A DNA stretch of 64,000 bases from Escherichia coli. Lineage in GTDB: Bacteria > Pseudomonadota > Gammaproteobacteria > Enterobacterales > Enterobacteriaceae. The stretch lies in assembly GCF_017348835.2 (NCBI RefSeq), contig NZ_CP072315.1; one strand, 5' to 3'. The position numbers were made by a program, and so were the translations under genes. The notes beneath the pieces were generated by a model, which was not told the origin of the DNA, made no database searches, and saw nothing but the letters and a program-made list of their open reading frames with translations. Below are positions 3,273 through 63,500 of the stretch, one piece after another. Positions within the stretch are counted from its first letter, which is position 1; each line of letters starts with the position of its first letter.

Positions 3273-3435
3273 AATGCCCTCCTTTGTATGTGATTATTAT
3301 ACCTGCTTCCATTGCAGGCCAAACAGGTTCGGTGTATGAAAAATAGACTTCTCTCCGGCGTATAGCAATCTACTTACTGATCTGTTTTCGTATCAAACTG
3401 TATGGCATAACCGAGGGGCGTACGTGGTGAGTCAG

Positions 3436-3446
3436 AAAGTTACTTT
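3436..3446. promoter_or_regulatory. AAAGTWACTTT palindromic motif copy
   Basis: aaagttacttt; about 160 bp upstream of the leftward gene starting at 3272. Confidence 0.5.
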
Positions 3447-3628
3447 TCCGTAATAGTTAATTTCAGATCCTTCTTCCAGTTACGCTTCAGTATAAAACCG
3501 ATACCCTCTAATTCAGCATCCTTCACGTTTAATACGCTTCACTTTAAGGCAGGGCTTTTCGGTTGATATGAATTCTTTTTCCGGTTGCTGGACATGGGTT
3601 TCATCCTGATAGTTAAAATTGCAGGCTA

Positions 3629-3931
3629 TCAGTCACCACCACCACCTCCTCCTCCTCCTCCTCCACCGCCACCATCACAACCACCAGCTATGCTATTTTC
3701 ACCATTACAATCACCTCCGAGGGGGTTCAAATGGCTGCTCCCCTGTAGATGGTGTCCTTGCCAGATCGAACCCGAACCAGCGCCTCCTGAGCGTCTTTGC
3801 TTGCCCTGAGGCAATTGTGCAGGCTCACCAGCACCGGCGGTCCCAAAAATGTCCCGGGCAATTTTATAAAGAAGGTAAAAAGGTACGCCCAGCATCATAA
3901 AAAAGATTACTGAAAATATTACACGTTCCAT
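3629..3931 (-). CDS. small Gly-rich membrane protein
   Basis: 100-aa ORF with N-terminal TM helix and a C-terminal run of 13 Gly encoded by the trinucleotide tract. Confidence 0.4.
   Translation of the reverse strand: MERVIFSVIFFMMLGVPFYLLYKIARDIFGTAGAGEPAQLPQGKQRRSGGAGSGSIWQGHHLQGSSHLNPLGGDCNGENSIAGGCDGGGGGGGGGGGGGD
3635..3690. repeat. trinucleotide simple-sequence tract (CCA/CCT)n
   Basis: caccaccaccacctcctcctcctcctcctccaccgccacc read directly; encodes a poly-Gly run in the minus-strand ORF. Confidence 0.8.
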
Positions 3932-4363
3932 TGATGATCTCCTGTCTTGTGAGAGACCAGTTATATCAGGGTGATTCAGTATTTCCGTTTAGAAAAGAGT
4001 ACTAATTTGGCCCTGTTCGATCTTAATTTGCCATCCGGGAAAAAGTCATAGGGATAGGCCTGCCAGAGTCAATAACTTCCAGTGATCTGGAGGAGACCCC
4101 GGCTCTCTGAGCCCTCATGGATGGTACGGCTTTACCCCCTGTAAACAGATTCACGTTCCGCAGGACAAACATCGACTACTGACGTCTCATATTTGCTGAC
4201 GCTAATCCGACGTCTCATTGCCGTCTGCTTGTTTTCTTTAAAGGGTGTATTAGACGAATATCAAATCGGAATGGTAGGGGATGTGTGGGCACCATGCCCG
4301 GCCCTCTTTGAGCATCTGAGAGATTGGAGACCTAGCCGGGTAAGATAGCTACTTTCTTACGGG

Positions 4364-12205: not shown

Positions 12206-13543
12206 ATAAGCGCTAACTTAAGGGTTGAACCATCTGAAGAATGCGACGCCTCGGTGCCTCGTTAAGACGATGCCTCGCGTTCTTCAATTGCGTTTTGTAG
12301 GCTGTCAGGGATACTGTCCCACGAATGGCCACCTGTAAGCTCCAGATGACCATTTTTGTTATTCTCCACAACGAGTTAGTTCTTCTTTTCGGATCCGGCA
12401 CTTCTGGGGGGGAAATCCAGCGATGGCTGGATTATGTCGTCAATTAAAAATGCGGCGAGTAGATTAGCAAATATCCACGCTTTCGCGAGTTCAGGTTCCT
12501 TTGCACGCAAAGCATCCAGGTGCAGCAAACTTTTGAGCCGCTTAAAAGCCAGTTCAATTTGCCATCGCAGACGGTAACAATCAGCCACTTGCTCTGCTGA
12601 ATATTCATCTTCCGGTAATGATGTTAGCAATAGCACATGGCCCGCTGCTTCCAGCGTTTCCGCCTGAACTACTCGTCCTTTTCGACGATTCTCGCTGAGC
12701 AGTCGGGTTTTACTGATTAATGCTTTTTCGGGAGGAAGTGATACGGCAATGAGACGTGCCGGAAAGGGAGCTCCGGCTTTTTTATTACCTGAATTGCCTA
12801 TCATTACAGTGGTTTCACCGTTCTTACCGCAATCCAGCCCGCGCAGAAAACCCATCATGTCAAAGCGCATTCCTTCTGCAGTTAACCAGCGCAATCCTCG
12901 CCAGTGAACCCGGACGATATAATCAGCTTCTCCAAAAGCAAGTGAGCGGATACATTCGGGACGCGAACCGAATCCCCGGTCAGCAATGCGTATCTCGTCT
13001 GCCGTTTGCGCAAATCGGTCCAGCCGTTCAGCGTCTCTGCTGTCGGTTAGCTCAAAATCAGTGAACTGACAGGTATGAGGATCATATCCCATATGTAGTC
13101 GCCATTCAGCGCTGCCGCCCCCGGGCGCACTGATTGCTGTTCCATCGACAAGACGCAATCTCTTTCCGCTTGTACAACCCGTAACTGCGGCGCGTACAGC
13201 AAGTGTTTGTGCGGCAAGTATGCCAAACCAGTCGGCGGCATTCCGCAGCCGCTTCAGGAGAGCCACGTCAGATAATGTTGCAACGTCATGGAGCTGAGCC
13301 CATGCAGTGACTTCACGTAATGACATCCCCCCGGGGCCGTAAGCCAGCCCCAGACGTAGCAGAGTTGCAGCATCACGAATTTCGCGGCGGCGGGTTAGAG
13401 CCCCGGCATTACGTGCCGAAGTATCCAGTTCTTCGGGCTTACCAATATGGGCCAGAATTGCTGACCAGTTATCGTGAGAGTAATTCATCGGCACGTTAAA
13501 TCATATCAGGCGTAATACCACAACCCTTAAGTTAGCGCTTATG
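12206..13543 (-). mobile_element. IS186 (IS4 family), complete copy
   Basis: 1338-bp element with terminal inverted repeats cataagcgctaacttaagggttg / caacccttaagttagcgcttatg, flanked by a duplicated GC-rich target (gggggttgccccc). Confidence 0.9.
12376..13494 (-). CDS. insL: IS186 transposase
   Basis: 372-aa IS4-family DDE transposase with the YRLRWQIELAFKRLKS signature; matches my recollection of E. coli InsL. Confidence 0.9.
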   Translation of the reverse strand: MPMNYSHDNWSAILAHIGKPEELDTSARNAGALTRRREIRDAATLLRLGLAYGPGGMSLREVTAWAQLHDVATLSDVALLKRLRNAADWFGILAAQTLAVRAAVTGCTSGKRLRLVDGTAISAPGGGSAEWRLHMGYDPHTCQFTDFELTDSRDAERLDRFAQTADEIRIADRGFGSRPECIRSLAFGEADYIVRVHWRGLRWLTAEGMRFDMMGFLRGLDCGKNGETTVMIGNSGNKKAGAPFPARLIAVSLPPEKALISKTRLLSENRRKGRVVQAETLEAAGHVLLLTSLPEDEYSAEQVADCYRLRWQIELAFKRLKSLLHLDALRAKEPELAKAWIFANLLAAFLIDDIIQPSLDFPPRSAGSEKKN

Positions 13544-13566
13544 GGGGTTGCCCCCCTCTTTGTCAG

Positions 13567-13725
13567 CTACTTACCGGATTCGTAGGCCAGGATAGCAAAT
13601 ACCTCCCTTGTTCCGTCTTTCATCCGCAACTCGCAAAGCGAGTTTCGTGTGAGCCAGGTGAATATCAACAGCGTTAAACAAACTATTAATATGCACAAAA
13701 CAATGGGTTGGTTCGGCATTTTCAT
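13567..13725 (-). CDS. hok: Hok/Gef-family type I toxin
   Basis: 52-aa product [52 protein letters not shown] closely resembles Hok; the ORF track shows an in-frame 5' extension to 13782. Confidence 0.8.
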
Positions 13726-13823
13726 GGCCTTCTTCTCCTTGCATTTAAGCAGGCAAGAGGCTACGCTGTGTGTGACTAGCATACAGGGGCCTCGGGTTGT
13801 ACTGACCCCAGAAAGTTGGACAG

Positions 13824-14675
13824 TTAAACACGAGGCATATAGGTCTGATTCCGATATTCAATTGGAGTCAGACCTTTTAATTTCAGGCTAATTCTTCTGC
13901 TGTTGTAGTATTCAATATATTCCGTAACAGCATCCTTCAGCTCGCTTATATTACTGAACTCATCAAGATAAAAACACTCCGACTTTAAGGTTCCAAAGAA
14001 ACACTCCACCACAGCATTATCCAGACAATTGCCTTTTCTGGACATGCTTTGTTTAATACCATGTTCTTTAAGGATATTTTGATATCTTCTCATACGATAC
14101 TGCCATCCCTGGTCAGAGTGCAGAACAGGATGCTCGTGAGGATTAAGCTTTTTGAATGCCTGATCGAGCATATTCTCGACCATGTTCATCACTGGTCTTT
14201 CCGAAAGGCTGTAAGAAATAACTTCGTTGTTGAAGAGATCTATTACTGGAGACAAATACAGCTTGCGCCCATTGACTGCAAATTCAGTAACATCGGTAAC
14301 CCACTTCTCGTTTGGCCGCGTAGCCTTGAAATCTCTTTGGAGAACATTGGGGGCGGTTTGCCCTACCTCTCCTCTGTAAGAGCGGTATCGCTTGACCTTA
14401 ATCGCTGCCTTCAGTGAGAGGATTCCCATCAGGCGCTGAACAGCTTTATGGTTAATCTGTTTCCCTTCTCGATGAAGAGACAGCGTTACCCTACGGTATC
14501 CGTATCGGCCTCTATTCTCATGATAAATCTCACCAATACGCTTTTTAACGTCCGCATACTTGTCAGGCTTGCTGAGAGCCTTTAGATGGTAATAAAACGT
14601 ACTGCGCGGTATCTCCGCAGCCCTGAGAAGCTCATCAAGAGGATAAAACTGCCTTAGCTCGTTGAGTACTTTCAC
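13824..14675 (-). CDS. insK: IS150 OrfB (DDE integrase part; made as OrfAB by -1 frameshift)
   Basis: 283-aa IS3-family integrase-like ORF overlapping OrfA at the A AAA AAG slippery site. Confidence 0.9.
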
Positions 14676-15193
14676 TTTTTCGTGGGATGAGCTAAGGCTT
14701 TCAGCTTTTTTAGATACACAAGCCGCGTTTCAAGAAATCGAACTTGCCTTTCAAGATCCTCAATGCGTCGGTCTTTTGACAGCTCCAATGCTGATGCCGC
14801 TTTTTCTGGATCAACTGATATTGCAATGTTTCTTTTGGTGCCAATCTTGAGCGCGCGTAAACCAGCTTCTCCGCGCTCTTCATAAACCTTCAGCCACCTG
14901 GCTACAGAACCACTACCAGCAAGCATAAAGTGAGCAGCAGCCTGATTAAGGGACATGTGCTGCTCGATCACCGCTTTCACGACCTTAATACGCAACTCAG
15001 GATCAGCACTAACACCTTTAGGTTTGGGAATTAAACCTTTTTCTCCATGTTTTTCATAGAGGGCAACCCATGTCCTGACCTGGGTTCGGGGGACACCAAA
15101 ACGTGCCGAGATGATCCTGTAACCATCATCAGTAGTGAAGTAGTGATTCACGACTTCAAGGCGCTTTTCAAAAGGGTATTTTGGCTTTGACAT
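14672..15193 (-). CDS. insJ: IS150 OrfA (HTH transposase subunit)
   Basis: 173-aa HTH/leucine-zipper ORF typical of IS3-family OrfA. Confidence 0.9.
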   Translation of the reverse strand: MSKPKYPFEKRLEVVNHYFTTDDGYRIISARFGVPRTQVRTWVALYEKHGEKGLIPKPKGVSADPELRIKVVKAVIEQHMSLNQAAAHFMLAGSGSVARWLKVYEERGEAGLRALKIGTKRNIAISVDPEKAASALELSKDRRIEDLERQVRFLETRLVYLKKLKALAHPTKK

Positions 15194-41284: not shown

Positions 41285-43705
41285 ATGAAACATCTCGCTT
41301 TTATTACTGCTGTAGCCGGACTCGGTATGTCTGTTCAGGCCCCAGCTCAGATATATGAATCGGCCTTTAAGGACACGAACGGTATTGAGATCCACGCCCC
41401 GTCTTCTCGTCTTATGCTTAATCCGGCATCACCGGTAACTTTGACACTTATTTCAGGTCTTGATCGTTTCGTTAATGTCAAAGTCACGAAAGACACTGGA
41501 ACTGTCATTCTTAATACTACGACTACACGGACGGGTGTATCAGACCGACTAACAGCTGCTGACGGTAGTGAGTTCTACGGCAAAAAAGTAACTTTGCCTG
41601 CTTTGGGTGAAGGCAAATTTGTCGTTCAGATAAACGTGTTAGATCTCAATCAGAAGCCTGTAGCGACCTATAACTATAACTGGCTAATTGATGTCACCCC
41701 TCCAGCGGCAAATGCTCTTACCGCTAATACTGGTTCTGGCTCTACCGCTGGTGACGTGTGGAAGCTTGGATTAGAGGCAACGGGGCAGTATGACTTCACC
41801 TCTTCGGGCGTAAGTGATGCAAATGGTATTGATAAGGGCCTAATATATATTTACAGGCAGGACGGTAGCCTCTACAGCACTACACAGATGCAGTATGACG
41901 TATCCGGCCAAAAGATGTACCACACTTACTCTAAGAATTCAGTTAAGGGAACCGGAATACCAGACAGCAACCTGGATGAAGACTTTACTGCAAAAGTTGT
42001 TATCTTCGATAACGCAGGTAATAGCCGAACGCTGCCAACTCAAAAATTTCGCTACGACAACACGCTGGGTGAGATGACACTGTGGGCCGTTCATGATCCA
42101 AATACGTCTTCCAGCGTCGTACCCGGGGTTTCTAATTATCCGGCTTACAAAGCCGGTATGGTCGTTAACGAAAACCCTATTCGATTAGTCTACCGGATCC
42201 CAAAATCTAACTACCGTGCTTATTCAGAAGGTGGGCTTCAGTTCATCAATCAATATTCCGCCCCCAAAGAGATAGCTGTAGACAGCACTTATGCTTATGT
42301 TGAAATGACTCTTCCCTATGGCTCAATTAATGGGGATATGGCTCGTATGGCGAACTTTGGCCAGTGGGGAGGGTATTATCCGTCATACAGCCTCGTTCTA
42401 AACCCATCTGCAAACCAAACGCCTGCATTTGCGGGTACCTGGGTAGATTTCCTCGATGATAAGGGGAACTGGGTTAAGTGGAAGGATTTTGAGAGTGTGG
42501 CTTCATCACGACTGCCAATTAAAATTTCCCGACTTCGTTTTAACGTTGAAGCCCGGCCCTTTGCACAGGAGATCGGCGGTAAGGCGACCTGCACCATTCC
42601 GGCAGGAAAAACCTCGTGTGAAGCGCCTGAGACGTTTGATATGGCCTTGGGTACCCAGGGCTACAATAGAATCCTTTACTTCGTTCGCAGCATCAGCAAT
42701 CCCATTTTGCGGTCTGAGCAATGGATTATGACACGCTGGAACAATAAACAACTGCCGGTAATAAACTCGATATCATATGACGAGACTAACAAGCAGCTGG
42801 ATGTACTGGCGTCACTTGAAGGCGATGGTAACTGGTTCGACTCGGTCTCATTGAGGGAATTTTATCTTTCCGATAAGAACACCGGTACCCGGATGTCACC
42901 AACAGGCGTAATCAAATCTCGTATCTCAGGTAACTACACGATTGCTTATGATTTATCCCGTCAGTCTGAAGGAAAATACAACGTTGAGGTCAACATCAGG
43001 GACTTCTTCCAGAACCAGACCAATAAAACTTTCGGAGAAATTGCTCTGGATAACACTCCTCCGACAGTGGCCATAACATTCGACGGAAAGCCGGTAAAAG
43101 ACGATACGGTAGTGTACGGCCTGGAGAACCTCAGGATCGCTCTGGCAGATAATCTGACAACCCCGAGGATAACCCGTCTTCAGCTCGTAGGTGGCCCCAC
43201 AGCTGATAACGTTGAGCTTACGTGGTCACCGGCAGGCAAAGATACATACATGCCTGAGTATCCGAGGCTGTTCCCAAATTTCGAACCATCTGAAAATTAT
43301 TCAATTAGCGTAACAGTTGCCGATAGTCAGTCGAATACCAAAACCTATACTCAGAAGTTCAGTTATCTACCGAATAACCTTGTGCAGTTACATAATCTAC
43401 GCACATTGTCGGTCAGTTCACCTCTCAAAACGACAGATGGCGTACCACTTGCGTACCTGTCCACTAACGTTCTGCGTAAGACAAATGGAGAAATTGCTAA
43501 AGGGGTCCAGAACGCAACGCTGACTGTGCGGAAGGATGCAGCCTTCGGTATTAAATTTAATGGGGCACAGGCGGCTCCAGGCGAGTCAGTTGAGGTGCAA
43601 ATAGATATGGGCCAGGGGGATAATCTTCTGTTACCCGTTTATCCTTCCGAAAATGGGAAAGTTGGCACCTCAGAATTCATGATTCAGATCGACGAGTTGA
43701 AGTAA
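41285..43705 (+). CDS. large secreted beta-rich protein (paralog 2 of 3)
   Basis: 806 aa, signal peptide, collinear conserved blocks with 35274..37691 and 49587..52043. Confidence 0.7.
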   Translation: MKHLAFITAVAGLGMSVQAPAQIYESAFKDTNGIEIHAPSSRLMLNPASPVTLTLISGLDRFVNVKVTKDTGTVILNTTTTRTGVSDRLTAADGSEFYGKKVTLPALGEGKFVVQINVLDLNQKPVATYNYNWLIDVTPPAANALTANTGSGSTAGDVWKLGLEATGQYDFTSSGVSDANGIDKGLIYIYRQDGSLYSTTQMQYDVSGQKMYHTYSKNSVKGTGIPDSNLDEDFTAKVVIFDNAGNSRTLPTQKFRYDNTLGEMTLWAVHDPNTSSSVVPGVSNYPAYKAGMVVNENPIRLVYRIPKSNYRAYSEGGLQFINQYSAPKEIAVDSTYAYVEMTLPYGSINGDMARMANFGQWGGYYPSYSLVLNPSANQTPAFAGTWVDFLDDKGNWVKWKDFESVASSRLPIKISRLRFNVEARPFAQEIGGKATCTIPAGKTSCEAPETFDMALGTQGYNRILYFVRSISNPILRSEQWIMTRWNNKQLPVINSISYDETNKQLDVLASLEGDGNWFDSVSLREFYLSDKNTGTRMSPTGVIKSRISGNYTIAYDLSRQSEGKYNVEVNIRDFFQNQTNKTFGEIALDNTPPTVAITFDGKPVKDDTVVYGLENLRIALADNLTTPRITRLQLVGGPTADNVELTWSPAGKDTYMPEYPRLFPNFEPSENYSISVTVADSQSNTKTYTQKFSYLPNNLVQLHNLRTLSVSSPLKTTDGVPLAYLSTNVLRKTNGEIAKGVQNATLTVRKDAAFGIKFNGAQAAPGESVEVQIDMGQGDNLLLPVYPSENGKVGTSEFMIQIDELK

Positions 43706-43865: not shown

Positions 43866-44290
43866 TGATTACGACAATGGGAGTGAGTGTCGAACCCCTT
43901 GAGTAAGGATACCTGGTAAATATACAGCCCCGGGGATTCTCTTCCTTCAACCGGGGATGACAACGGGAGTGAGTCCGGCAACTCACACCTGTTGTCACTT
44001 CTCTGACATATCGTCATACGAGCTTACTCAAGCGCATCCACAAAGATGGGATCGTTTTGAATCTAAACTGGTACTGGTTAGCCAGTCACTTGCATCTACT
44101 CCCCCGTCGATATTTAAGTGACAATTGTAGTGATCTGCAATACTGGTGTCTCAGAAACACTGACGACGGTAGAGACTCAATACCCTAACCCCTGACAACA
44201 GAAGTGAGCTTAGAGGTGTTACGCTGCTGTCACCTAATGCTTGGGAATTGCCTGACTCACAACCATTGTCATCCGGAGCTACTGATTAAC
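43866..44290. repeat. degenerate palindromic iteron-pair units (left part of the array split by the IS91-family element)
   Basis: Units such as gacaacgggagtgagtccggcaactcacacctgttgtcac resemble the array at 45998..47316. Confidence 0.4.
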
Positions 44291-44294
44291 GTTG

Positions 44295-45985
44295 AACCAC
44301 GGCAGCCTGGCGGCTGCAAATTGAAAACCGCCCCGGTTCGTCCTGTTGTTGCCGCACGCCCCGCAGAATATGTATGCTCTGAGGACCTGTTTTATTAAGG
44401 ACTCATCCCCTTATGTTGACCCGCAAAAGTATCGATACAGTTCTGCTCTCTGTTGGTGCTGAGAAGCTCTCACAACGAGAATGGGACTGGATGAAAATGC
44501 TCAAACCCATGGACCCACCACCTGCGATGGTGACGACCTCCATCCTGAAGCGCCGTGGCGATACAGCAGCCCTTACCCTGCTACAGGATACCGGGGTTTA
44601 ATCCATCCTCATGTTGTCCGGTTTTACTCCCCGCCCTCTGAAACGTCTGTTCACAGCCAACCAGTGCTGGACGTCCTTCCTGGATGCGGGCGGTCTGCGC
44701 GATATCGAGGTTGAAGCCGTCACCAAAATGCTGGCCTGCGGCACACGGATACTGGGTGTAAAAGAGTTCGGGTGTGATAACCCGGACTGTCAGCACGTAA
44801 AGTACCTGACCAACTCATGCGGCAGCCGTGCCTGCCCGTCCTGCGGAAAGAAGGCCACAGACCTGTGGACAGCAACACAGCTGAATCGTCTTCCTGACTG
44901 CGACTGGGTACATCTGGTCTTCACCCTGCCGGACACGCTGTGGCCGGTGTTCGAAAGCAACCGCTGGCTGCTGAATGACGTGTGCCGTCTGGCGGTGGAG
45001 AATCTGCTGTATGCCGCCCGAAAACGGGGGCTGGAACCCGGTATCTTCTGCGCCATCCACACGTATGGCCGTCGTCTCAACTGGCATCCGCATGTACATG
45101 TGTCTGTAACCTGTGGAGGTCTGAATAAGCATGGTCAGTGGAAAAAGCTGAGCTTCCTGAAAGACGCGATGCGTTCACGGTGGATGTGGAATATGCGGCA
45201 GCTGCTTCTGAAAGCGTGGTCAGAGGGGATGGCAATGCCGGAGTCGTTGTCACATATCACGACGGAATCACAGTGGAGAAGCCTGGTGCTGAAATCCGGC
45301 GGAAAATACTGGCATGTGTACATGTCGAAGAAGACAGCCGGAGGGCGGAATACGGCACGCTACCTGGGTCGTTATCTGAAGAAGCCACCAATAGCGGCTT
45401 CCCGACTGGCTCATTACAACGGAGGGGCAAGCCTGAGCTTCCGTTACCTGGACCACAAAACGGGAGAAACGGCGACGGAAACGCTGACACAGCGTGAGCT
45501 GGTCGCGAGGCTGAAACAGCACATCCCGGAGAAGTTTTTTAAGATGGTGAGGTACTTCGGGTTCCTTGCCAACCGTGTGTGTGGAGAGAAGCTGCCGCAG
45601 GTGTACCGTGCACTGGGGATGGATAAACCGGAACCAGTGGCGAAAGTGTGCTATGCACAAATGGTGAAACAGTTCCTGAGTCGTGACCCGTTCGAATGCG
45701 TGCTGTGTGGCTGCCGGATGGTATACCGCCGGGCCATTGCGGGGCTGAATGTATCAGGGCTGAAGAAAAACGCGCGGGATATCAGTCTACTGAGGTATAT
45801 GCCGGCCTGACACAGGCTAAGTGTGCCCGGGAATCGGTGAAAGTATAAAAAACAGCCTGTTACGGTATAAAAATCGACCATACAGAGAGGGAAACCACCG
45901 GAGTGGTGGGAAAAGCAGAAAGGCTCACGTGGCATAAGGCGTGGACAATGGTATCGACTGGTTTTTCAATTTCCTATACGTGAAC
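44295..45985 (+). mobile_element. IS91-family insertion sequence (boundaries approximate)
   Basis: Rolling-circle transposase gene flanked by similar sequences (cgttgaaccacgg at left, cgtgaaccgctgg at right) and lying inside the palindromic repeat array. Confidence 0.45.
44611..45810 (+). CDS. IS91-family (HUH, rolling-circle) transposase
   Basis: N-terminal Cys-rich zinc-binding region, HPHVHV HUH motif and ARYLGRYL tyrosine motif. Confidence 0.8.
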   Translation: MLSGFTPRPLKRLFTANQCWTSFLDAGGLRDIEVEAVTKMLACGTRILGVKEFGCDNPDCQHVKYLTNSCGSRACPSCGKKATDLWTATQLNRLPDCDWVHLVFTLPDTLWPVFESNRWLLNDVCRLAVENLLYAARKRGLEPGIFCAIHTYGRRLNWHPHVHVSVTCGGLNKHGQWKKLSFLKDAMRSRWMWNMRQLLLKAWSEGMAMPESLSHITTESQWRSLVLKSGGKYWHVYMSKKTAGGRNTARYLGRYLKKPPIAASRLAHYNGGASLSFRYLDHKTGETATETLTQRELVARLKQHIPEKFFKMVRYFGFLANRVCGEKLPQVYRALGMDKPEPVAKVCYAQMVKQFLSRDPFECVLCGCRMVYRRAIAGLNVSGLKKNARDISLLRYMPA

Positions 45986-45997
45986 CGCTGGACTTTA

Positions 45998-47316
45998 ATG
46001 ACAGTGGTAGTGATGGATAGGCTCATTTCCATTGTCGTCATTTTATCGGACAAGCCTCTTCGTCCTACAGGTTTAAGCTGACAATGGTAGTGATTGGATG
46101 ATCTCACTACTGTTGTCACTCAGTTCTTTGAGCGGACCCTTCCCTCGGTTGGTCGGCATTAACAACGGTAGTGACTCGATTGGCTCACTGCCATTGTCAT
46201 CGTGTAAATGACGTACCTTATCAGCTCAGCTGAAAGCAATGACAACGGTAGTGACTCTAATTGCTCACTGCCATTGTCGTCGTGTCTATTGAGAGCCTTA
46301 TCAGTGCACCTGAAAAGCAATGACAACGGTAGTGATTCTAATGGCTCACTACCGTTGTCACCGTGTGTATTGAGAGGATGGTCCACTTAACTGGACGTAT
46401 ATGACAATGGTAGTGACTTTAATAGCTCACTACCATTGTCGGTGTGTGAATTGAGAGGATGAGCAGCTCAGCTGTACGTCCATGACAATGGTAATGACTT
46501 AATGAGCTCACTACCGTTGTCACCCTGTTAATTAAGAGGCTCATCTGCTCTTCTGGAAGGCTATGACAACGGAAGTGACTTGCTGGGCTCACTGCCATTG
46601 TCGCCGTATGAATTGAGAGGATCATCCGCTCTTCTGGATGGCAATGACAACGGTAATGACTTAATAGGCTCACTACCATTGTCACCCTGTGAATTGAGAG
46701 GATGATCTGCTTAACCAGACGGCCATGACAACGGTAGTGACTTTCTGGGCTCAATACCGTTGTCACCCTGTGAGTTAAGAGGTTGACCCGCTCTACTGGA
46801 CGGCCATGACAACGGTAGTCACTTTCTGGGCTCACTACCGTTGTCGCCATATAGAATGAGAGGAGCATCAGCTCAACTGAACGGCAATGACTACAGTAAT
46901 GAGCTGGATGAAGCATAACCATTGACATCTGGCCCAACCGGAAGCCGTATTCGCCAATCCAATCGAGATTCACAATGGCCGTGACTCGCCGCATTAAGTT
47001 CCGGTGTCCTCCTAAAGCTGAACGCACACTCGGAGGACAATGACAATGCCAGTAAGGTACACATCATTACCATTGTCACTATAGCTACCAGAGAAGCCGG
47101 GATTTGAATGTCGATGGTAGTGAGTGGGTCAACTCACTGCCATTGTCACCCCGTTACGATATTTTCCGTTGGATGTACTGGCCAATGAAGTAAAGCGTAG
47201 AAACCGGGTGTTAACAGGTGACTCAGGAGAAAGCGTTGAATTTCGCAATCTCGATCTACATAGGGTGGTAGAGAACAATGACAACGGTAATGACTTTTGA
47301 CTCATTACCGTTGACG
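45998..47316. repeat. array of about 16 head-to-head iteron pairs with about 80-82 bp phasing
   Basis: Units of TGACAACGGTAGTGAC, 8-11 bp spacer, GCTCACTACCGTTGTCA beginning near 46080, 46163, 46240, 46320, 46401, 46481, 46562, 46642, 46724, 46806 plus degenerate copies; the half-site matches the 21-bp iterons upstream of repA. Confidence 0.8.
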
Positions 47317-47390: not shown

Positions 47391-48479
47391 TTAGCTGGCG
47401 TTGCTGTTCTTTTTCTGGCTTCGAAGACTACGAATATAGCGCAGTTCTTCAGCGGTTAAATCATGGACGGTAAGAACATCATCGCCGTCAATCGGGTCAG
47501 CTGGTGGGCATAACTCACCTTCTAAAACAGAAGACCCTGAGTTCTCTTCTTCATCTTCAACCACTTCTAAAGGAGGCTGAGTATTGTTCAAATTCAGATC
47601 GGGATCCCGCTTATGAATCTGGAAGTATACTTTTCCGTCTTTCTTAATTTCGGTGTACTTGAGGTATCCTATCGATGCCAACTCTTCAAGAGCCTTTCTC
47701 ACGGTAGCATTCTGACTATTTGCTCGTGTTTTGAGGTTCAGACGATTTTTCAGCCGAGTAAGGGATATCGGTATAGGATTTGGCGGTAATGACTCTATGA
47801 ACGTATAGAGAGCCTGGGCGCTTTCCTTCTTGGCCAACTCCTTAATTGCCTTCAGCTGCATCAAAACCTTATGATCGTATTGATAGAGCTCGAAAATCTT
47901 AGGATCAACCTGAAGGACAACCTGATCTGATTCCGGGTCTAACAGGGCAGACTGTACCAGATGCGTTGTATAGACTTTGGACGAGTTATTACTGGTGAAC
48001 GACAAGGTAACGGATGCTAACCTGCGTAAGGAGGCGTCTATACGTTTTCTGGACGCTGTAGATGAGCGATAATTTTCAGGCGTACATAGCTTGAGGAATT
48101 CAGTGAATTTTAAGCTTATCGTGTCATTGTTAATCGGATGATTGGCATAGGTTCGAATGATGCCCATCCACGTCTTAAAATCTACTGACATATTAAGACG
48201 CTCACCGACAATTGAAATATTGGTGAACCCCTCGCTCTCCATTAAAGAGAGCGTCTGTAACTCTTTCGTTGCGTCAAAGCCAACCGTTTTATATTCCCGA
48301 TTTTGACGCCCCACACTCTTTGGTGATGGGACGAACAGCCCGAGCCGCATCAAAGCAATAGACTGCACCGTACGGTTGCTGTTAGGACGCAAAATGATGT
48401 CTTTACCTGATTCTTTCTCTCTAACAGAGAAAGCCCTGGTGACCAGGTCCTGCTGCTCAGTATCTTTCTCTTTAGTCAT
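47391..48479 (-). CDS. repA: plasmid replication initiator RepA (RepFIB-like, Rep_3 family)
   Basis: TVQSIALMRLGLFVP, DFKTWMGII, THLVQSALLDPESD, FELYQYDHKVLMQLKAI and ESAQALYTFIESLP blocks resemble RepFIB-type initiators as I recall them. Confidence 0.85.
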   Translation of the reverse strand: MTKEKDTEQQDLVTRAFSVREKESGKDIILRPNSNRTVQSIALMRLGLFVPSPKSVGRQNREYKTVGFDATKELQTLSLMESEGFTNISIVGERLNMSVDFKTWMGIIRTYANHPINNDTISLKFTEFLKLCTPENYRSSTASRKRIDASLRRLASVTLSFTSNNSSKVYTTHLVQSALLDPESDQVVLQVDPKIFELYQYDHKVLMQLKAIKELAKKESAQALYTFIESLPPNPIPISLTRLKNRLNLKTRANSQNATVRKALEELASIGYLKYTEIKKDGKVYFQIHKRDPDLNLNNTQPPLEVVEDEEENSGSSVLEGELCPPADPIDGDDVLTVHDLTAEELRYIRSLRSQKKNSNAS

Positions 48480-48690
48480 AATAAGTTATCACTGAATGTG
48501 TAAACAGATTGGTGAATAGTAAGCCCCAGCGAACTCTATGTCACTGGATGGATCATTGTGATGATCCATATCTGTGCATAAGTTCTACCTAAAAAAACGA
48601 CTCCACTCATTAAAACTTGGCAAAAACTCTTTGCATACAATGACCTGCAACTCTTATCAACAACGGATCAGATCAAGTTAAAAAGATCTA

Positions 48691-48800
48691 ATGAAAAGTC
48701 ACTACTATTGTCGCTCTGATCACTACTGATGTCAAAAAACTCATTACCAACGTTATAATAATCACTACTAATGTCAAAATAATCACTACTGTTGTCACTG
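48691..48800. repeat. five 21-22 bp direct iterons (origin set 1)
   Basis: tcactact(a/g)ttgtc-like repeats at about 21-bp spacing upstream of repA. Confidence 0.7.
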
Positions 48801-49094
48801 ATCACGTCTCAGGCCTTGTGCCGTCTGGCCTGGAGGCAGCGGGGATCTCTTTTGATCTATCAGGAACACTAAGGTACTAATTATTGGAACTACCTTGTGG
48901 AAAATGGGGATAAATAAATGCTTAGTTCTTATACAGGTCTCAACTTGCCTCCCTGATAAAAACTGTCGTCAAAGCTAAATCACAGCCACAGGCATTTTCG
49001 GTGGATAAATTTTTGAGAAATAGAAGCATACATGCAGACTCGTGTCGCAAGTAATTGAAAGTAATGATTTATTTAAATAATGCGAGTCACCTTA

Positions 49095-49215
49095 CCTCAC
49101 AGTGGAAGTTTAAGTCTAACCTCACTACCATTGTCACTTAAAATCATTACCAACGTCGAAATAGTCTCTACCATTGTCTTTTAAGTCACTCCCGTTGTCA
49201 CTTATGTCGCTACTG
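49095..49215. repeat. five 21-22 bp direct iterons (origin set 2)
   Basis: Second block of the same iteron followed by a sequence related to that after set 1. Confidence 0.7.
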
Positions 49216-49586
49216 TTGTCAGTGACAATGCTCCAGCCCAGTAACCATGCGGCCTACAGCGTACCGGGATCTTCTTTGTACTCTCTGGCACCTTTGGGAT
49301 CATTTATTGGATCTACATGAGGGATAAAATCTTTTGACGATTTCGTAGTGCAGTTATACCAGCGACTTAGCAAGACAAAAGCTGCAATTTAGTGACGAGT
49401 TACTAGTCTGCCCAACAAGAGCAATGCAGAGAAGATATGTGGTGAAATGACCATGGTAGTGAGTCTAATCACTACCATGGTCCGCAGTAAGCGTTACTTA
49501 CGCAATGAACGTCGGACTGATTTGCAACAACATGGGCTACGGCGCATCAGAAGGCGGCCGTTGTGCTTCAGCAAAACAGCCCTGCT

Positions 49587-52043
49587 TTATTTTAATTCTT
49601 CAATGTTAATCATGAACTCAGATCTGCCAGTAAGGCCGGATACAGCAGGGAAAATAGGAAAGCTACGGCTGTCCCCGAGCCCCAAATCCAGTTGAAGCTC
49701 TTTGCTTTCACCTGGCATCGCAGAAACGCCATTTACAGTCACGCCGAATGCAGCGTCCTTACGGACAGTAAGCACTGCGTCCTGAAGCCCTGTAGCGATT
49801 GAACCATCCTTTTTACGCAGCTGGCTGGCATACAGAACAGCCAGAGCAGTATTGTCAGATGTTTTGAGAGAAGCATTGACAGCTAAGGTTTTCAGATTCT
49901 CTAGCCTGACGAGATTGTTTGGAAGGTAGTTAAATTCGACTGAGCTTTCTTTAACGTTGTTCATCTCATCTTTGGCCTGAACTGTGAGAGTGTATGTTTC
50001 GCCTTCATTAAGAGACGGAAAGATCTTGGGATAATTAGGTGCATACAGGTTGTTTCCCAGATTCACCCAAGACAATTCCACCGCATCAGAAACAGGGCCA
50101 CCGCGAAGAGTCATACGGCTTAAGGATGGTTTAGTTAGAGCATCGGTGAGCTGTATACGGACGTTCTCCAGCCCATATACTGTTACGTTTTTGCTGATCG
50201 GTTTTCCTTCGTAGCTAATACTTACAGATGGTGCTGTATTATCAACGACAACTGTTTGATAAGGGAGGTTACCGGTATTGTTGAATGTATCTTGGGCATT
50301 AATCACCACGTTATAACTGCCTTCTGGTACCTCTTTCATGTTGAACTCATACGTGTAGTTCCCAGACGCCATATTTCTACCTGTTTGTTTGCCGGTTACG
50401 CTTATTTCTGCGTTGTTACGGTTTTTATCTGACAACCAAACTCGATTTACATAAACATGGTCGAAATATGAACCATCTCCAGGTTGATTCACGTAAACCT
50501 GGAGAATGTTGGTGGTTTCATTGTAATCAAATCCAGTGACGGAGGGACCCAGTGTATGCCAGGCTATATTCTCCCATATAGGGGCAAAGAAGGTTGCTTC
50601 GGTGGTTGACCTTACTTCATAGCCACTATGAAGATAACCGGTAGTGCCATTTATAATATCCTGGGGCAAAGAGACGGTACAGGTTGTTGAGCCAGCTGGA
50701 ATACTGCATGTTGCTCCGCCAGTGATTTTTTGATCATATGGCCTGGCCTGTACATTGAATCGGATATTAGTAAGTTTTATAGGCATATCAGATGCCTTGA
50801 ACAGGTTCCAGTTTACGCTGTTGAACCATGTTCCATCAGCCTTTTGTCGTTCTATGGGTGAACTTCCCCAAGCCGGACTCTTTACAGAGGCAGGATCCCA
50901 GTTGAGCCAGCTGGCATACTGACCAAGATCTCCTCCAGACCATTGATATGTATTCACAGGTCTATAGTAGTTTCCATCTAAGGCACCCTGTGGCAGCTTA
51001 ACTTCCACGTAGACATAGGTGGCATCTTCGGAAAGGACCTGTACTCCGCCATAGTTATTGGTAATGCTCATGCCACCATTTCGATATGGCTTCCAGTTAG
51101 TTCTTGGGATACGTATAACCAACTTGTAGGGGTTTTCCAGCACTGTAAGGCCTCGTTTAAACGGGACGTATCCCGAAGAAATGCCGGGTACAACACTGGT
51201 GCTTACACGTGAGTCATGAACTGCAAATGGCGTAAATTCTCCCATTTGATCGTCATATAAAAACCGCTGGGGAGGAATGTTAAGCGTATTTCCTGCCAGG
51301 TCCGTAACGATGAAATTGAAGGTGAATTCTTCATCAAGATCACTTGAGGGCATGCCAGCCTGGGTGTTCATATCTTTAATCCACGGATAGAACGCACGTT
51401 TATTGGCTGTGTCATAACTCAGGTTATTGTCGGAGACCACAGAACCATTACTTCGTTTAATGACAAGACGGATCTTGTCAATTCCACTAGCATCCTCAAT
51501 ACCGTCTGCAAATATAGAAAACTGGCCACTACCGCCTCGGCCCAACTCCCAAAGTGGCCCAGAAAGTACCATGTCGTAACCTGCGTTTTGACTCGGATAA
51601 ATACTCTTATAGCGTGGAGGAGTTGTATCAACGATGAAATGATAAGTAGATGTGCTCACTACAGTCTGGCGAATATCCAGAGTTTCATTGACTACAGTAA
51701 AGGTCCCTTCTCCGAGCGCCGGTAGAACCATATCCTTTCCATAGTATTCTGTTCCATCGGCAGCAACGATACGATCTGCAACGCTCGTTTTGGTCGAGAC
51801 GGAGGAATACATAACCTTTTTATCGCTGTCTCGTGTGACCGTCACTCGCTCGTACCGATCAAGACCCGATATCAAGTTCAGAGTCAAAACACCAGCGGGA
51901 TTAAGATATGTTTGTGTTGCAGGTTTGATATTCCGAACAGCCTTATTGGTATCTGTAAATGAGTAGCTAAATACCTGAGCATGTGCCGAAGATACAGTAG
52001 CAAGGGCAGTTGCAACCATGCAGCCAATTAGAGTTTTACGCAT
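49587..52043 (-). CDS. large secreted beta-rich protein (paralog 3 of 3)
   Basis: 818 aa, signal peptide (ATALATVSSAHA), conserved blocks shared with the other two paralogs; two palindromic motif copies upstream. Confidence 0.7.
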   Translation of the reverse strand: MRKTLIGCMVATALATVSSAHAQVFSYSFTDTNKAVRNIKPATQTYLNPAGVLTLNLISGLDRYERVTVTRDSDKKVMYSSVSTKTSVADRIVAADGTEYYGKDMVLPALGEGTFTVVNETLDIRQTVVSTSTYHFIVDTTPPRYKSIYPSQNAGYDMVLSGPLWELGRGGSGQFSIFADGIEDASGIDKIRLVIKRSNGSVVSDNNLSYDTANKRAFYPWIKDMNTQAGMPSSDLDEEFTFNFIVTDLAGNTLNIPPQRFLYDDQMGEFTPFAVHDSRVSTSVVPGISSGYVPFKRGLTVLENPYKLVIRIPRTNWKPYRNGGMSITNNYGGVQVLSEDATYVYVEVKLPQGALDGNYYRPVNTYQWSGGDLGQYASWLNWDPASVKSPAWGSSPIERQKADGTWFNSVNWNLFKASDMPIKLTNIRFNVQARPYDQKITGGATCSIPAGSTTCTVSLPQDIINGTTGYLHSGYEVRSTTEATFFAPIWENIAWHTLGPSVTGFDYNETTNILQVYVNQPGDGSYFDHVYVNRVWLSDKNRNNAEISVTGKQTGRNMASGNYTYEFNMKEVPEGSYNVVINAQDTFNNTGNLPYQTVVVDNTAPSVSISYEGKPISKNVTVYGLENVRIQLTDALTKPSLSRMTLRGGPVSDAVELSWVNLGNNLYAPNYPKIFPSLNEGETYTLTVQAKDEMNNVKESSVEFNYLPNNLVRLENLKTLAVNASLKTSDNTALAVLYASQLRKKDGSIATGLQDAVLTVRKDAAFGVTVNGVSAMPGESKELQLDLGLGDSRSFPIFPAVSGLTGRSEFMINIEELK

Positions 52044-61699: not shown

Positions 61700-61870
61700 T
61701 TAACTCATTGATTATAGTGACTTTATGAAAGGATCCGGCATTCGGATGCATGCGAAAAGCATTTGAATGAATAAGGAAGGCATTTACTGGAATGCTTATG
61801 GCATTTAGGTTAATGCGTAAAAAGCATTTGCAAGAATATGTTATAAACAGTTTGCCAAATGAAAATCTTA
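61700..61870. repeat. iteron-like repeats upstream of the second repA
   Basis: Repeated (A/G)GCATTT(G/A) ... AATGC units (aaaagcatttgaatgaat, ggcatttactggaatgc, aaagcatttgcaagaat). Confidence 0.5.
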
Positions 61871-61889: not shown

Positions 61890-62765
61890 ATGATTAAAAA
61901 CAACGAGTTAATCCATCCTTTTGACGTAACCAGTAATGAATCAGGTAAGACTTATCAACTGACGCCTAACTCGTCCAAGTCGGTTCAGCCCGTGGCCCTG
62001 TTGAGATTGAGTGTATTTACCCCTGTCGGCACAAAAGAAAACCGCGACCGAAACTTTGAAGTTGATGCCTCTGATGAGCTTTCGTGTATGGAAATTGCAA
62101 GATCGGAGGGTTATGACGACATCAAGATAACTGGTGTCAAACTATCTATGTCTACCGACTTTAAGTGCTGGCTCGGGATCATCATGGCTTTCAGTAAATA
62201 TGGTTTTACTTCCGAGAAGATTACCCTGACTTTTAACGAGTTTGCGAAGATGTGTGGTATCAGTTCAACAAACATCAACAAACGAACTCGTGCGCGCTTT
62301 AAAGAGTCATTAATGAACCTTGCATCGGTAGTGCTTGCCTTCTCAGACTCTCGGAGTGGTCGGTTCACAGTAACGCATCTGGTGCAGAAGGCTATGATTG
62401 ATCCAAAAAGCGATACTGTTGAGTTGGTTGGGGATCCTTCTATGTGGGAACTGTATCGTTACGACCATAAGACATTGTTAAGCCTTCAGGTTCTATACAT
62501 TTTGGCTAAAAAAGAAGCTGCGCAATCTCTCTATATTTATTTTGAAGCAATGCCAGCTGGTACGTTGTTCGTTAATATGAAACGGTTGAGGGAAAGGTTG
62601 CTTCTTACAACCCCTATTCGTACGCAAAACCAGATAATTCGTAAAGCAATGCGGGAACTTGAATCTATCGGATATCTCGATTATCAAGAAGTTAAGAAAG
62701 GTCGCGACATACAATTTCAGATCTTCAAAAGAAGCCCTAAGCTGGCCCTCGCCAAACAAGGTTGA
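61890..62765 (+). CDS. repA: plasmid replication initiator RepA (second Rep_3-type replicon)
   Basis: SVQPVALLRLSVFTP, DFKCWLGII, THLVQKAMIDPKSD, WELYRYDHKTLLSLQ and AAQSLYIYFEAMP blocks collinear with the repA at 47391..48479 but clearly diverged. Confidence 0.85.
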   Translation: MIKNNELIHPFDVTSNESGKTYQLTPNSSKSVQPVALLRLSVFTPVGTKENRDRNFEVDASDELSCMEIARSEGYDDIKITGVKLSMSTDFKCWLGIIMAFSKYGFTSEKITLTFNEFAKMCGISSTNINKRTRARFKESLMNLASVVLAFSDSRSGRFTVTHLVQKAMIDPKSDTVELVGDPSMWELYRYDHKTLLSLQVLYILAKKEAAQSLYIYFEAMPAGTLFVNMKRLRERLLLTTPIRTQNQIIRKAMRELESIGYLDYQEVKKGRDIQFQIFKRSPKLALAKQG

Positions 62766-62989: not shown

Positions 62990-63500
62990 TATTCACGTGA
63001 ATGCCTTTTGTGGATTACGCCTCTTACATTCATACAAATGCTTTTGATGTCGGTATCCCAAAAAATCATTCATTGAAATGCTTTTGTTTGCCACTGTATC
63101 CCGAGCATAGCTATGCAGTGGTATAAAAAGGCATTTTGGTGAATGGCATTAGGTCGAATGACACACAGTACAGCTTTGTTAAGAGCGAGAATGGTCCAAG
63201 ACATCTATGACATTGGGCATCAGAAGGACTATGTGTTTGATATGAGATCAAAAAAATATCAGAAGCATCACAACTCCAATGGCATTCAAAGAAATGCCTT
63301 TGTTTTGTTAGTACACCAAACAACCCAAAATTCATGCAGTTATATCAAAGACTCATTCGCAAAAGGACTCAGCCAGAAAGCATTTGCTTAAATAGCATTG
63401 GCCAAAAGCATTCGAATGAATGATGTTCATATGGACAAGACAAAGTCCCACTCACGCCCAGAGGTGTAAAAGGCATTTAGATGAATGACGCACCGGCCGA
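62990..63500. repeat. iteron-like repeats downstream of the second repA
   Basis: Many copies of AATGC(C/T)TTT / AAAGCATT-type units in both orientations. Confidence 0.5.

What the first reader, a model, noticed from the sequence alone, without database searches (positions are those of the whole stretch)
43866..47316. Very large phased array of head-to-head iteron pairs downstream of repA, split by an IS91-family insertion
Downstream of the RepFIB-like repA there are at least 10 near-identical units (TGACAACGGTAGTGAC, 8-11 bp spacer, GCTCACTACCGTTGTCA) spaced at 80-82 bp, plus degenerate units on both flanks. The half-site matches the 21-bp direct iterons upstream of repA, so each unit is an inverted iteron pair. 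Classical incA/incC control loci have about 5-9 direct iterons, so more than 30 half-sites in phased palindromes is unusual and could act as a strong copy-control sink or a centromere-like site. Degenerate units continue at 43866..44290 on the far side of the IS91-family element, implying the IS inserted into the array.
Basis: partly seen in the sequence, partly recalled or inferred. Interest (0 to 1): 0.75.

Follow-up and report, generated by a model that had tools for sequence, protein, structure and literature searches.

The report
Known IncHI2 RepHI2A long-iteron array
The repeats are real, but they are the already described 80-81 bp "long iterons" next to the repHI2 replication gene of IncHI2 resistance plasmids (R478 type), most likely a copy-number brake, here cut by a recent insertion sequence.

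Summary
The window is IncHI2 plasmid backbone. Downstream of repHI2 (47391-48479, minus strand) lie 34 RepA half-sites (TGACAAYGGTAGTGA) between 43872 and 47316. Eleven tandem 80-81 bp units (45999-46887) form the core, and ten of them are clear head-to-head pairs.

A 1,688-bp IS91-family element (about 44293-45980) splits the distal degenerate part from the rest. Only 1 of about 1,125 IncHI2 plasmid records shares this junction.

The array is not new. R478 carries the same array with 12 units about 490 bp from repHI2. The literature cites it as "twelve 80-81 bp iterons" (Gilmour 2004; Page 2001).

New detail from comparison:
- The arms are about 90% conserved between units. The spacers are 52-68% conserved, with no covariation.
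- Two relatives with RepA 86-88% identical keep 27-33 half-sites over 1.3-1.45 kb. They are not tandem and their spacers are unrelated, but head-to-head neighbours are almost always 25 bp (+/-1) apart.
- More distant RepFIB-type replicons have only about 4-14 downstream iterons.

Best reading: an expanded incA-like RepA-binding field for negative copy control and incompatibility. This is inferred, not shown.

A centromere role is unlikely. parAB lies elsewhere, beside its own 249-bp repeat array.

Novelty: already known. Interest is low.

The parts
43872..44271 (.). Distal, degenerate part of the RepHI2 half-site field: 7 half-sites, including one head-to-head pair at 43958/43983. The IS separates it from the rest.
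   Evidence: It is contiguous with 45981 onwards in the IS-free IncHI2 plasmids L001, L007 and R478 (L015).
44293..45980 (+). IS91-family insertion sequence, 1,688 bp. Its boundaries are ambiguous by 6 bp (44293-45980 or 44299-45986) because TGAACC occurs at both junctions. No inverted ends or target duplication can be told apart from this ambiguity.
   Evidence: Exact insertion relative to L001. The same element sits in a Klebsiella IncF plasmid with GAAC at both ends. Only 1 plasmid record, NZ_CP090540.1, has this junction as one contiguous match.
44611..45810 (+). IS91-family transposase gene, 399 aa. A small 62-aa ORF at 44413-44601 also belongs to the IS.
   Evidence: NCBIfam NF033538 transpos_IS91, E = 2.6e-92, 309.6 bits against a cut-off of 125. 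Annotated as an IS91 family transposase in L002.
45999..46887 (.). Core array of 11 tandem units of 80-81 bp. Each unit is TGACAAYGGTAGTGA, 10 nt, TCACTACCRTTGTCA, then a 41-nt outer spacer. In the first unit (45999) the right arm is degenerate.
   Evidence: The same array has 12 units in R478.
46888..47148 (.). Degenerate last unit (46888) and further half-sites: 47064 on the minus strand and the pair 47109/47134.
47279..47316 (.). The head-to-head pair nearest to repA, with starts 23 bp apart, 75 bp beyond the repA stop codon. On the repA strand it also scores as a terminator-like hairpin.
   Evidence: A head-to-head pair just after repA is also present in E. coli IncFIB, Pantoea pCB1B and a Morganella replicon.
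47391..48479 (-). repHI2 (RepHI2A initiator), 362 aa.
   Evidence: 100% identical to proteins annotated 'IncHI-type plasmid replication initiator protein RepHI2'. Homologues at 50-62% identity carry Pfam PF01051 Rep_3.
48699..48797 (-). Five direct 21-bp iterons proximal to repA. A promoter-like site is embedded in them.
48890..49100 (-). AT-rich stretch (34-39% GC) with DnaA-box-like 9-mers at one mismatch (49000-49008, 48905-48913, 48896-48904). GATC sites lie just outside it: GATC-containing motifs (agatca, agatcc) at about 48845-48860, and three more at about 48665-48690 beyond the repA-proximal iterons. This is the presumed origin core.
   Evidence: This is an inference from the architecture. 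The DnaA-box count in the whole window is not above chance.
49122..49221 (-). Five direct 21-bp iterons distal to repA.
49448..49483 (.). Tight inverted pair of a variant half-site (TGACCATGGTAGTGA) with starts 21 bp apart. Its role is unknown.
   Evidence: Also present in R478.

Best explanation
This is the downstream 'long iteron' array of the RepHI2A replicon of IncHI2 plasmids (R478 type).

Each 81-bp unit carries two complete RepHI2 iteron cores head to head, with starts 25 bp apart. Including the degenerate flanks, the locus offers about 34 RepA binding sites, against 10 direct iterons at the origin.

Most likely it works like P1 incA or the downstream repeats of RepFIB. It binds RepA and pairs with the origin iterons (handcuffing) and/or titrates the initiator. 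That would hold this roughly 240-kb plasmid at low copy number and express IncHI2-specific incompatibility.

The selected element is the head-to-head pair with a fixed 25-bp register. That suggests two RepA molecules bind each pair cooperatively. The 81-bp tandem regularity is a by-product of unit amplification in the IncHI2 lineage.

The IS91-family element is a recent, private insertion into the degenerate distal end. It leaves 27 of the 34 sites next to repA.

Shown here: identity of the locus, the anatomy, conservation of the arms, conservation of pair geometry in relatives, and the IS insertion. Inferred: RepA binding, handcuffing or titration, and the effect on copy number.
For: Identity of the locus:
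- The array and repA are 99.9-100% identical to IncHI2 plasmids.
- R478 has the same array with 12 units, 489 bp from repHI2.
- The literature describes twelve 80-81 bp iterons about 500 bp from repHI2 in R478 and says cloning experiments suggested functional activity (PMC8490738; PMC4980987).

The half-sites are iterons: the core is the same as in the two sets of 21-bp direct iterons that flank the AT-rich region upstream of repA.

Selection acts on the arms, not on a fold:
- Pairwise identity between units is 0.90 and 0.89 for the arms, 0.52 for the inner spacer and 0.68 for the outer spacer.
- Variable arm positions do not covary. The observed covariation score of 0.093 was reached by 229 of 500 shuffles.

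Pair geometry is conserved in relatives:
- L016 (RepA 88% identical) has 27 half-sites in 1.28 kb downstream of rep. L003 (86%) has about 33 in 1.45 kb.
- Neither is tandem and their spacers are unrelated.
- In L016, 8 of 8 '+ then -' neighbours are 21-26 bp apart. In L003, 9 of 11 are 24-26 bp apart. '- then +' neighbours range from 27 to 121 bp.

Gradient in the family (downstream iterons):
- E. coli IncFIB: about 4-5.
- Morganella replicon, RepA 60% identical: about 9 in 415 bp.
- Pantoea pCB1B, 51% identical: about 14 in 1.1 kb.

Natural variants carry 6, 11 or 12 units, and one carries the IS. So the unit number is not critical for replication, as expected of a modulatory locus.
Against: - No binding, copy-number or incompatibility data could be generated here.
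- The primary papers (Page 2001; Gilmour 2004) are not in the held library. What 'functional activity' means there is known only second-hand.
- All IncHI2 backbones are about 99% identical, so conservation within the group says little.
- The 6-unit variant could be an assembly collapse.
- RepHI2 itself does not reach the Pfam or NCBIfam thresholds. Its membership of the Rep_3 fold family rests on homologues.
Confidence: 0.72

Rival explanations
1. The array is part of the origin proper. Under this reading the long repeats are positive elements required in cis for RepHI2A initiation, as the word 'iterons' in the literature might imply.
For: Secondary sources call them iterons and say cloning experiments suggested functional activity. 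The units carry full iteron cores.
Against: Origin-type features lie on the other side of repA, at 48699-49221. These are two sets of 21-bp direct iterons around a 34-39% GC stretch with DnaA-box-like sites, with GATC sites close by. The array itself is 43-52% GC. Variants with 6, 11 and 12 units and with an IS inserted in the iteron field next to the array all exist as plasmids. In P1 and RepFIB, the closest characterised relatives, the downstream iterons are dispensable negative elements (established knowledge).
Confidence: 0.1
2. The array is a centromere-like partition site, bound by a ParB/ParR-type protein or by RepA acting as a tether.
For: Large arrays of palindromic sites are typical of some centromeres.
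Against: In the identical plasmid no par gene lies within the roughly 34 kb before repHI2 or the roughly 14 kb after it. parA/parB and parM sit in the tra2 region. Immediately upstream of parA is a separate 249-bp x 10.5 repeat array (L011 12515-15093) that has no RepHI2 half-site. R27 has the equivalent 52-54 bp arrays beside its parAB. The motif in the present array is the replicon's own iteron.
Confidence: 0.05
3. The array has no function. It would be a decaying tandem duplication, or a protein-coding repeat, since 81 = 27 codons and ORF 46419-47027 on the minus strand is sometimes annotated as a hypothetical protein.
For: An open frame of 202 aa runs through 6 units. Some records annotate a hypothetical protein there.
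Against: The arms are much better conserved than the spacers. Relatives keep the sites, with other spacers and no tandem order. The ORF starts with GTG, matches no NCBIfam family, covers only part of the array and has no counterpart in L003.
Confidence: 0.03
4. The array is a hairpin, cruciform or RNA element. Each 40-bp palindrome, or a small inverted repeat in the outer spacer, would act through folding.
For: The palindromes would fold, and the proximal pair scores as a terminator-like hairpin. By eye the outer spacers show TCAG-N5-CTGA-like inverted repeats.
Against: Variable positions on the two arms do not compensate each other, and the spacer stem has no consistent register. Covariation is not above shuffles in either register tried.
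Confidence: 0.03

Closest known systems
RepHI2A replicon of IncHI2 plasmid R478 (Page, Whelan and Colleran 2001; Gilmour et al. 2004)
   Same: It is the same locus. repHI2 is 99.4% identical. The same 81-bp units occur in the same order, with the same flanking degenerate sites and origin iterons.
   Different: The window has 11 units instead of 12. It also carries a 1,688-bp IS91-family insertion in the distal degenerate part.
incA of the P1 plasmid prophage, and the downstream repeats of RepFIB (P307/F)
   Same: Iterons identical to those of the origin are placed beyond the 3' end of repA. The replicon family is related, with RepA about 50% identical to RepFIB-type proteins. A head-to-head pair right after repA is present in E. 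coli IncFIB.
   Different: There are about 34 sites instead of about 5-9, and they are organised mainly as head-to-head pairs with a fixed 25-bp register and an 81-bp tandem order. The negative-control function is demonstrated for P1 and RepFIB (established knowledge) but only inferred here.
Downstream iteron fields of the closest non-IncHI2 relatives (Citrobacter pRHBSTW-00137_2, L003; Logan contig SRR24146890_368, L016)
   Same: The half-site sequence, the pair register (25 +/- 1 bp), the extent (1.3-1.45 kb) and the number of sites (27-33) are all the same.
   Different: They have no tandem periodicity, and the spacers between pairs are unrelated and of variable length (57-153 bp).
RepHI1A of R27 (IncHI1), and the 83-84 bp x 10 repeats of Acinetobacter III-4a megaplasmids (pALWED1.1)
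   Same: These are long tandem units containing the replicon's iteron core next to the rep gene of a very large plasmid. R27 has 43-44 or 87-88 bp units over 38377-39006. pALWED1.1 is described in PMC8490738.
   Different: The Rep proteins and motifs are unrelated or only distantly related. The internal head-to-head pair was not examined there.
Family of repeats (FR) of Epstein-Barr virus oriP (analogy only)
   Same: A tandem array of palindromic initiator-binding sites lies apart from the site of initiation on the same replicon (established knowledge).
   Different: There is no homology. FR acts in tethering and segregation and as a fork barrier. Nothing here shows such a role.

Membership tests
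RepHI2A replicon of IncHI2 plasmids | Initiator gene repHI2 | tested here: met
   100% identical to proteins annotated RepHI2 in hundreds of IncHI2A-typed plasmids, and 99.4% identical to that of R478.
RepHI2A replicon of IncHI2 plasmids | About twelve 80-81 bp tandem 'long iterons' about 500 bp from rep | tested here: met
   11 units plus 1 degenerate unit. The array ends 489 bp from the repA stop codon. R478 has 12. The description comes from PMC8490738.
RepHI2A replicon of IncHI2 plasmids | IncHI2 backbone context | tested here: met
   The flanking genes (Ig-like domain genes, DUF4942, Dam methylase, second rep gene, then tra2) are the same as in R478 and p2016062-242.
incA-type negative copy-control locus (P1 / RepFIB type) | Repeats share the initiator-binding sequence of the origin iterons | tested here: met
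   The same 15-17 nt core occurs in the arms and in the 21-bp direct iterons.
incA-type negative copy-control locus (P1 / RepFIB type) | Located outside the origin, beyond the 3' end of rep | tested here: met
   The array is at 43872-47316 and repA runs from 48479 to 47391. The origin-type features lie at 48699-49221.
incA-type negative copy-control locus (P1 / RepFIB type) | Dispensable for replication, and its deletion raises copy number | not testable with these tools
   There is only indirect support: natural variants have 6, 11 or 12 units, and one has the IS insertion.
incA-type negative copy-control locus (P1 / RepFIB type) | Exerts incompatibility when supplied in trans | not testable with these tools
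   The primary paper (Page 2001) is not held.
Rep_3 (RepE / pi / pPS10 RepA) iteron initiators | Match to Pfam PF01051 | tested here: inconclusive
   RepHI2 itself has no significant Pfam or NCBIfam hit and no relative in the PDB by sequence. Its homologues at 50-62% identity (E about 1e-100) carry PF01051.
Plasmid centromere (parS / parC type) | Adjacent to, and served by, a partition operon | tested here: not met
   No par gene lies within the roughly 34 kb before repHI2 or the roughly 14 kb after it. parAB has its own 249-bp x 10.5 array elsewhere, without RepHI2 half-sites.
IS91 family insertion sequence | IS91-type transposase | tested here: met
   NF033538, E = 2.6e-92, above the curated cut-off.
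IS91 family insertion sequence | Insertion next to a GTTC/CTTG tetranucleotide without a clear target duplication (the criterion is from established knowledge of IS91) | tested here: met
   GAAC (GTTC on the other strand) is at the junction in the window and in an independent copy in a Klebsiella plasmid. The empty site in L001 reads ...CGTTGAACCGCTGG....

The most novel reading that the evidence does not exclude
The expanded field of fixed-register head-to-head RepHI2 sites may do more than titrate or handcuff. It could act like the family of repeats of EBV oriP. That is, an initiator-coated array that clusters or tethers plasmid copies, or blocks replication forks so that replication is unidirectional. 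This would be a maintenance element peculiar to very large IncHI-type plasmids. The conserved 25-bp pair register, which I could not find described in the papers available to me, would then reflect a specific RepA-RepA contact across the dyad.
Probability: 0.06. Interest if true: 0.6.

Novelty: already known. Interest (0 to 1): 0.15.

Why it matters
IncHI2 plasmids are major carriers of mcr, ESBL and heavy-metal resistance genes. Their copy number and incompatibility depend on this replicon, so the locus matters biologically. But it has been in the literature since 2001-2004.

The modest additions here are:
- The functional module appears to be a head-to-head iteron pair with a conserved 25-bp register.
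- The number of downstream sites grows from about 5 to about 34 across the RepFIB-RepHI2 family.
- Natural variants exist with 6, 11 or 12 units, and one with an IS insertion. These could be used to test dose effects on copy number.

Tried and rejected
- **Covarying hairpin in the outer spacer.** By eye the spacers show forms such as TCAG-N5-CTGA, TCTG..CAGA and GTCCA..TGGAC. Two registers were tested on 12 units. Neither has a consistent register, and covariation is not above shuffles. Rejected.
- **Cruciform or RNA selection on the 40-bp palindrome.** Variable arm positions (7/34, 12/29, 10/31) do not compensate each other. Rejected.
- **Coding repeat.** The 202-aa ORF at 46419-47027 on the minus strand matches no family, starts with GTG, covers only 6 units and has no counterpart in L003. 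Rejected.
- **Three-unit (243-bp) super-repeat suggested by Tandem Repeats Finder.** The unit-by-unit identity matrix shows no excess at lag 3. Rejected.
- **Pfam, NCBIfam and PDB sequence searches of RepHI2.** Nothing significant.
- **82-aa ORF at 49447-49695.** It starts inside the tight inverted pair, but shows no similarity to the 82-aa gene found upstream of rep in L003. Dropped.
- **Primary literature.** Page 2001 and the R27 sequence paper are not held, so only secondary descriptions were used.
- **pHCM2 (L004) and Kosakonia (L005) replicons.** No tandem array or iteron-type inverted pair turned up in either with the settings used. A head-to-head pair after repA is therefore not universal in the family.
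- **Apparent extension of IS matches 10-20 bp beyond the IS end.** This turned out to be chance similarity of the flanks.
Full report
**What is there.** The motif TGACAACGGTAGTGA, allowing 3 mismatches, occurs 46 times in the 64-kb window against 1.3 expected. Thirty-four of these lie between 43872 and 47316. Tandem Repeats Finder gives an 81-bp period over 46155-46902, and self-identity peaks at 81, 162, 243 and 324 bp. Laid out from the first base of the left arm, eleven units start at 45999, 46079, 46160, 46240, 46321, 46402, 46483, 46564, 46645, 46726 and 46807. A degenerate twelfth starts at 46888. From 46079 to 46807 each unit has a second half-site on the other strand starting exactly 25 bp after the first. 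The unit is therefore a head-to-head pair followed by a 41-nt outer spacer. Further half-sites lie at 43872-44271 (seven, with one pair) and 47064-47316 (five, with two pairs). Spacing is 80-81 bp. Whole units are only 53-81% identical to each other.

**The replicon.** The ORF at 47391-48479 on the minus strand is repHI2, 100% identical to the gene annotated 'IncHI-type plasmid replication initiator protein RepHI2'. Upstream of it, reading the minus strand, lie five direct 21-bp iterons (48797-48699). Next comes a 34-39% GC stretch with DnaA-box-like sites, with GATC sites close by. Then come five more direct iterons (49221-49122) and a tight inverted pair (49483-49448). The arms of the downstream units have the same core as these iterons. 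RepHI2 itself misses the Pfam and NCBIfam thresholds and has no relative in the PDB by sequence. Its homologues at 50-62% identity carry PF01051 (Rep_3) and are named RepFIB or RepA.

**Where the window comes from.** The array with repA matches 1,125 plasmid records, nearly all typed IncHI2A. There are two sequence types: 477 records at 99% identity or more, and 627 at 80-90%. The lower figure is largely because R478-type plasmids have one more unit. One record, Salmonella p2016062-242 (NZ_CP090540.1), is identical across the whole tested stretch, IS included.

**The insertion sequence.** Against the IS-free plasmid pAMSH1 (L001), the window carries exactly 1,688 extra bases. The empty site reads ...CGTTGAACCGCTGG.... 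TGAACC occurs at both junctions, so the ends are 44293-45980 or 44299-45986. The element encodes an IS91-family transposase (NF033538, E = 2.6e-92). An independent copy in a Klebsiella plasmid is also flanked by GAAC at both ends. That fits the GTTC target preference known for IS91-type elements (established knowledge). A query spanning the junction is matched contiguously in full by a single plasmid record, while the IS itself is in more than 3,000 records. The insertion is therefore recent and private. It separates 7 degenerate half-sites from the other 27.

**Already described.** R478 (NC_005211.1), the IncHI2 reference plasmid, has the same locus. Twelve units start at L015 3294-4183 and a degenerate thirteenth follows. 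The array ends 489 bp from repHI2 and has the same flanks. [quoted passage not shown] A review cites iterons of up to 76 bp in R478 (PMC4980987). I could not open the primary papers. So I cannot say whether the internal inverted-pair structure or a copy-control role was shown there.

**What is under selection.** Among eight well-formed units, mean pairwise identity is 0.90 and 0.89 for the two arms. It is 0.52 for the inner spacer and 0.68 for the outer spacer. Positions that vary in the arms do not compensate across the dyad. A hairpin I thought I saw in the outer spacer has no consistent register. In both tests covariation is not above shuffles. The arms therefore behave as independent protein-binding sites, not as a folded element. 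The open frame through six units (46419-47027, minus strand) has no family match and no counterpart in a relative.

**Relatives.** Two replicons whose RepA is 88% (L016) and 86% (L003) identical use the same half-site. They carry 27 and about 33 sites in 1.28 and 1.45 kb downstream of rep. There is no tandem periodicity, and the spacers are unrelated and 57-153 bp long. In both, a plus-strand site followed by a minus-strand site is almost always 25 +/- 1 bp away. In L016, 8 of 8 are within 21-26 bp. In L003, 9 of 11 are within 24-26 bp. The opposite order shows distances of 27-121 bp. The conserved module is thus the head-to-head pair in a fixed register, and the 81-bp order is an IncHI2 peculiarity.

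Further out, the downstream field shrinks:
- Pantoea pCB1B (51% identical): about 14 mostly direct iterons.
- A Morganella phage-plasmid-like replicon (60%): about 9 in 415 bp.
- E. coli IncFIB: about 4-5.

Several of these have a head-to-head pair directly after repA. The IncHI2 array could have grown from such a pair by amplification.

**Mechanism.** By position, sequence and family, the locus corresponds to P1 incA and the downstream repeats of RepFIB. Those are dispensable negative regulators that bind the initiator and pair with the origin (established knowledge). I infer the same here, with a roughly 3.4-fold excess of sites over the origin. Natural alleles with 6 units (L018), 11 units (window) and 12 units (R478), and the IS-split allele, show that the exact dose is not essential. 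None of this demonstrates binding or an effect on copy number.

**Rivals.**
- Centromere: unlikely. In the identical plasmid, parA, parB and parM lie in tra2. A separate 249-bp x 10.5 array abuts parA and contains no RepHI2 half-site. R27 has analogous 52-54 bp arrays beside parAB.
- Role as the origin itself: not excluded by computation, but disfavoured by where the origin-type features lie.

**Verdict.** The feature is the known RepHI2A long-iteron array with a private IS91-family insertion. It is already known and of low interest. Its only modestly new aspects are the conserved pair register and the family-wide expansion series.

Noticed in passing
window 61890-62765 (+), with sites at 61755-61832 and 63033-63416: A second replicon of the plasmid: a 291-aa 'RepB family' initiator, the RepHI1A(R478)/repHI2C type. 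Its own iteron core (CAAATGCTTTT) lies on both sides of the gene. R27's RepHI1A has 43-44 bp (or 87-88 bp) tandem units with the same core downstream of rep (L009 38377-39006).
   Followed up: partly
L011 (NZ_CP090540.1) 12515-15093; L009 (R27) 25602-26744 and 27544-27846: There are very large repeat arrays immediately beside parA: 249 bp x 10.5 in IncHI2, and 52 bp x 21.6 plus 54 bp x 5.6 in R27. They share a TTAACCCCCTTAATCGCCA-like motif and are probably the ParAB centromere. They lie outside the window.
   Followed up: partly
window 47279-47316 (minus strand): The iteron pair nearest to repA also scores as an intrinsic-terminator-like hairpin (12-bp stem, then a T-rich tail) 75 bp after the repA stop codon. 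It could both end repA transcription and bind RepA.
   Followed up: no
window 46419-47027 (minus strand): Because the unit is 81 bp (27 codons), a 202-aa open frame runs through six units. Some GenBank records annotate it as a hypothetical protein. It is 229 aa in R478-type plasmids. No evidence suggests it is a gene.
   Followed up: yes
L018 (NZ_CP149176.1) 616-1114; L015 (R478) 3294-4278: Unit-number polymorphism among IncHI2 plasmids: 6, 11 or 12 units. The 6-unit allele differs by exactly 405 bp (5 units) and could be a real deletion or an assembly collapse.
   Followed up: partly
window 41285-43705 (+), 49587-52043 (-) and about 35274-37664 (-): Three large genes for Ig-like domain proteins (about 800 aa each) surround the replicon. 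R27 has the same arrangement around one of its rep genes.
   Followed up: no
window 49448-49483: A tight inverted pair of a variant half-site (TGACCATGGTAGTGA, starts 21 bp apart) lies about 970 bp upstream of repA, at the 3' end of the Ig-like gene. It is conserved in R478. Its role is unknown.
   Followed up: no
window 47391-48479: RepHI2 gets no significant Pfam or NCBIfam match, although homologues at 50-62% identity are Rep_3 (PF01051). The extra length (362 against about 335-340 aa) may be why the models miss it.
   Followed up: partly
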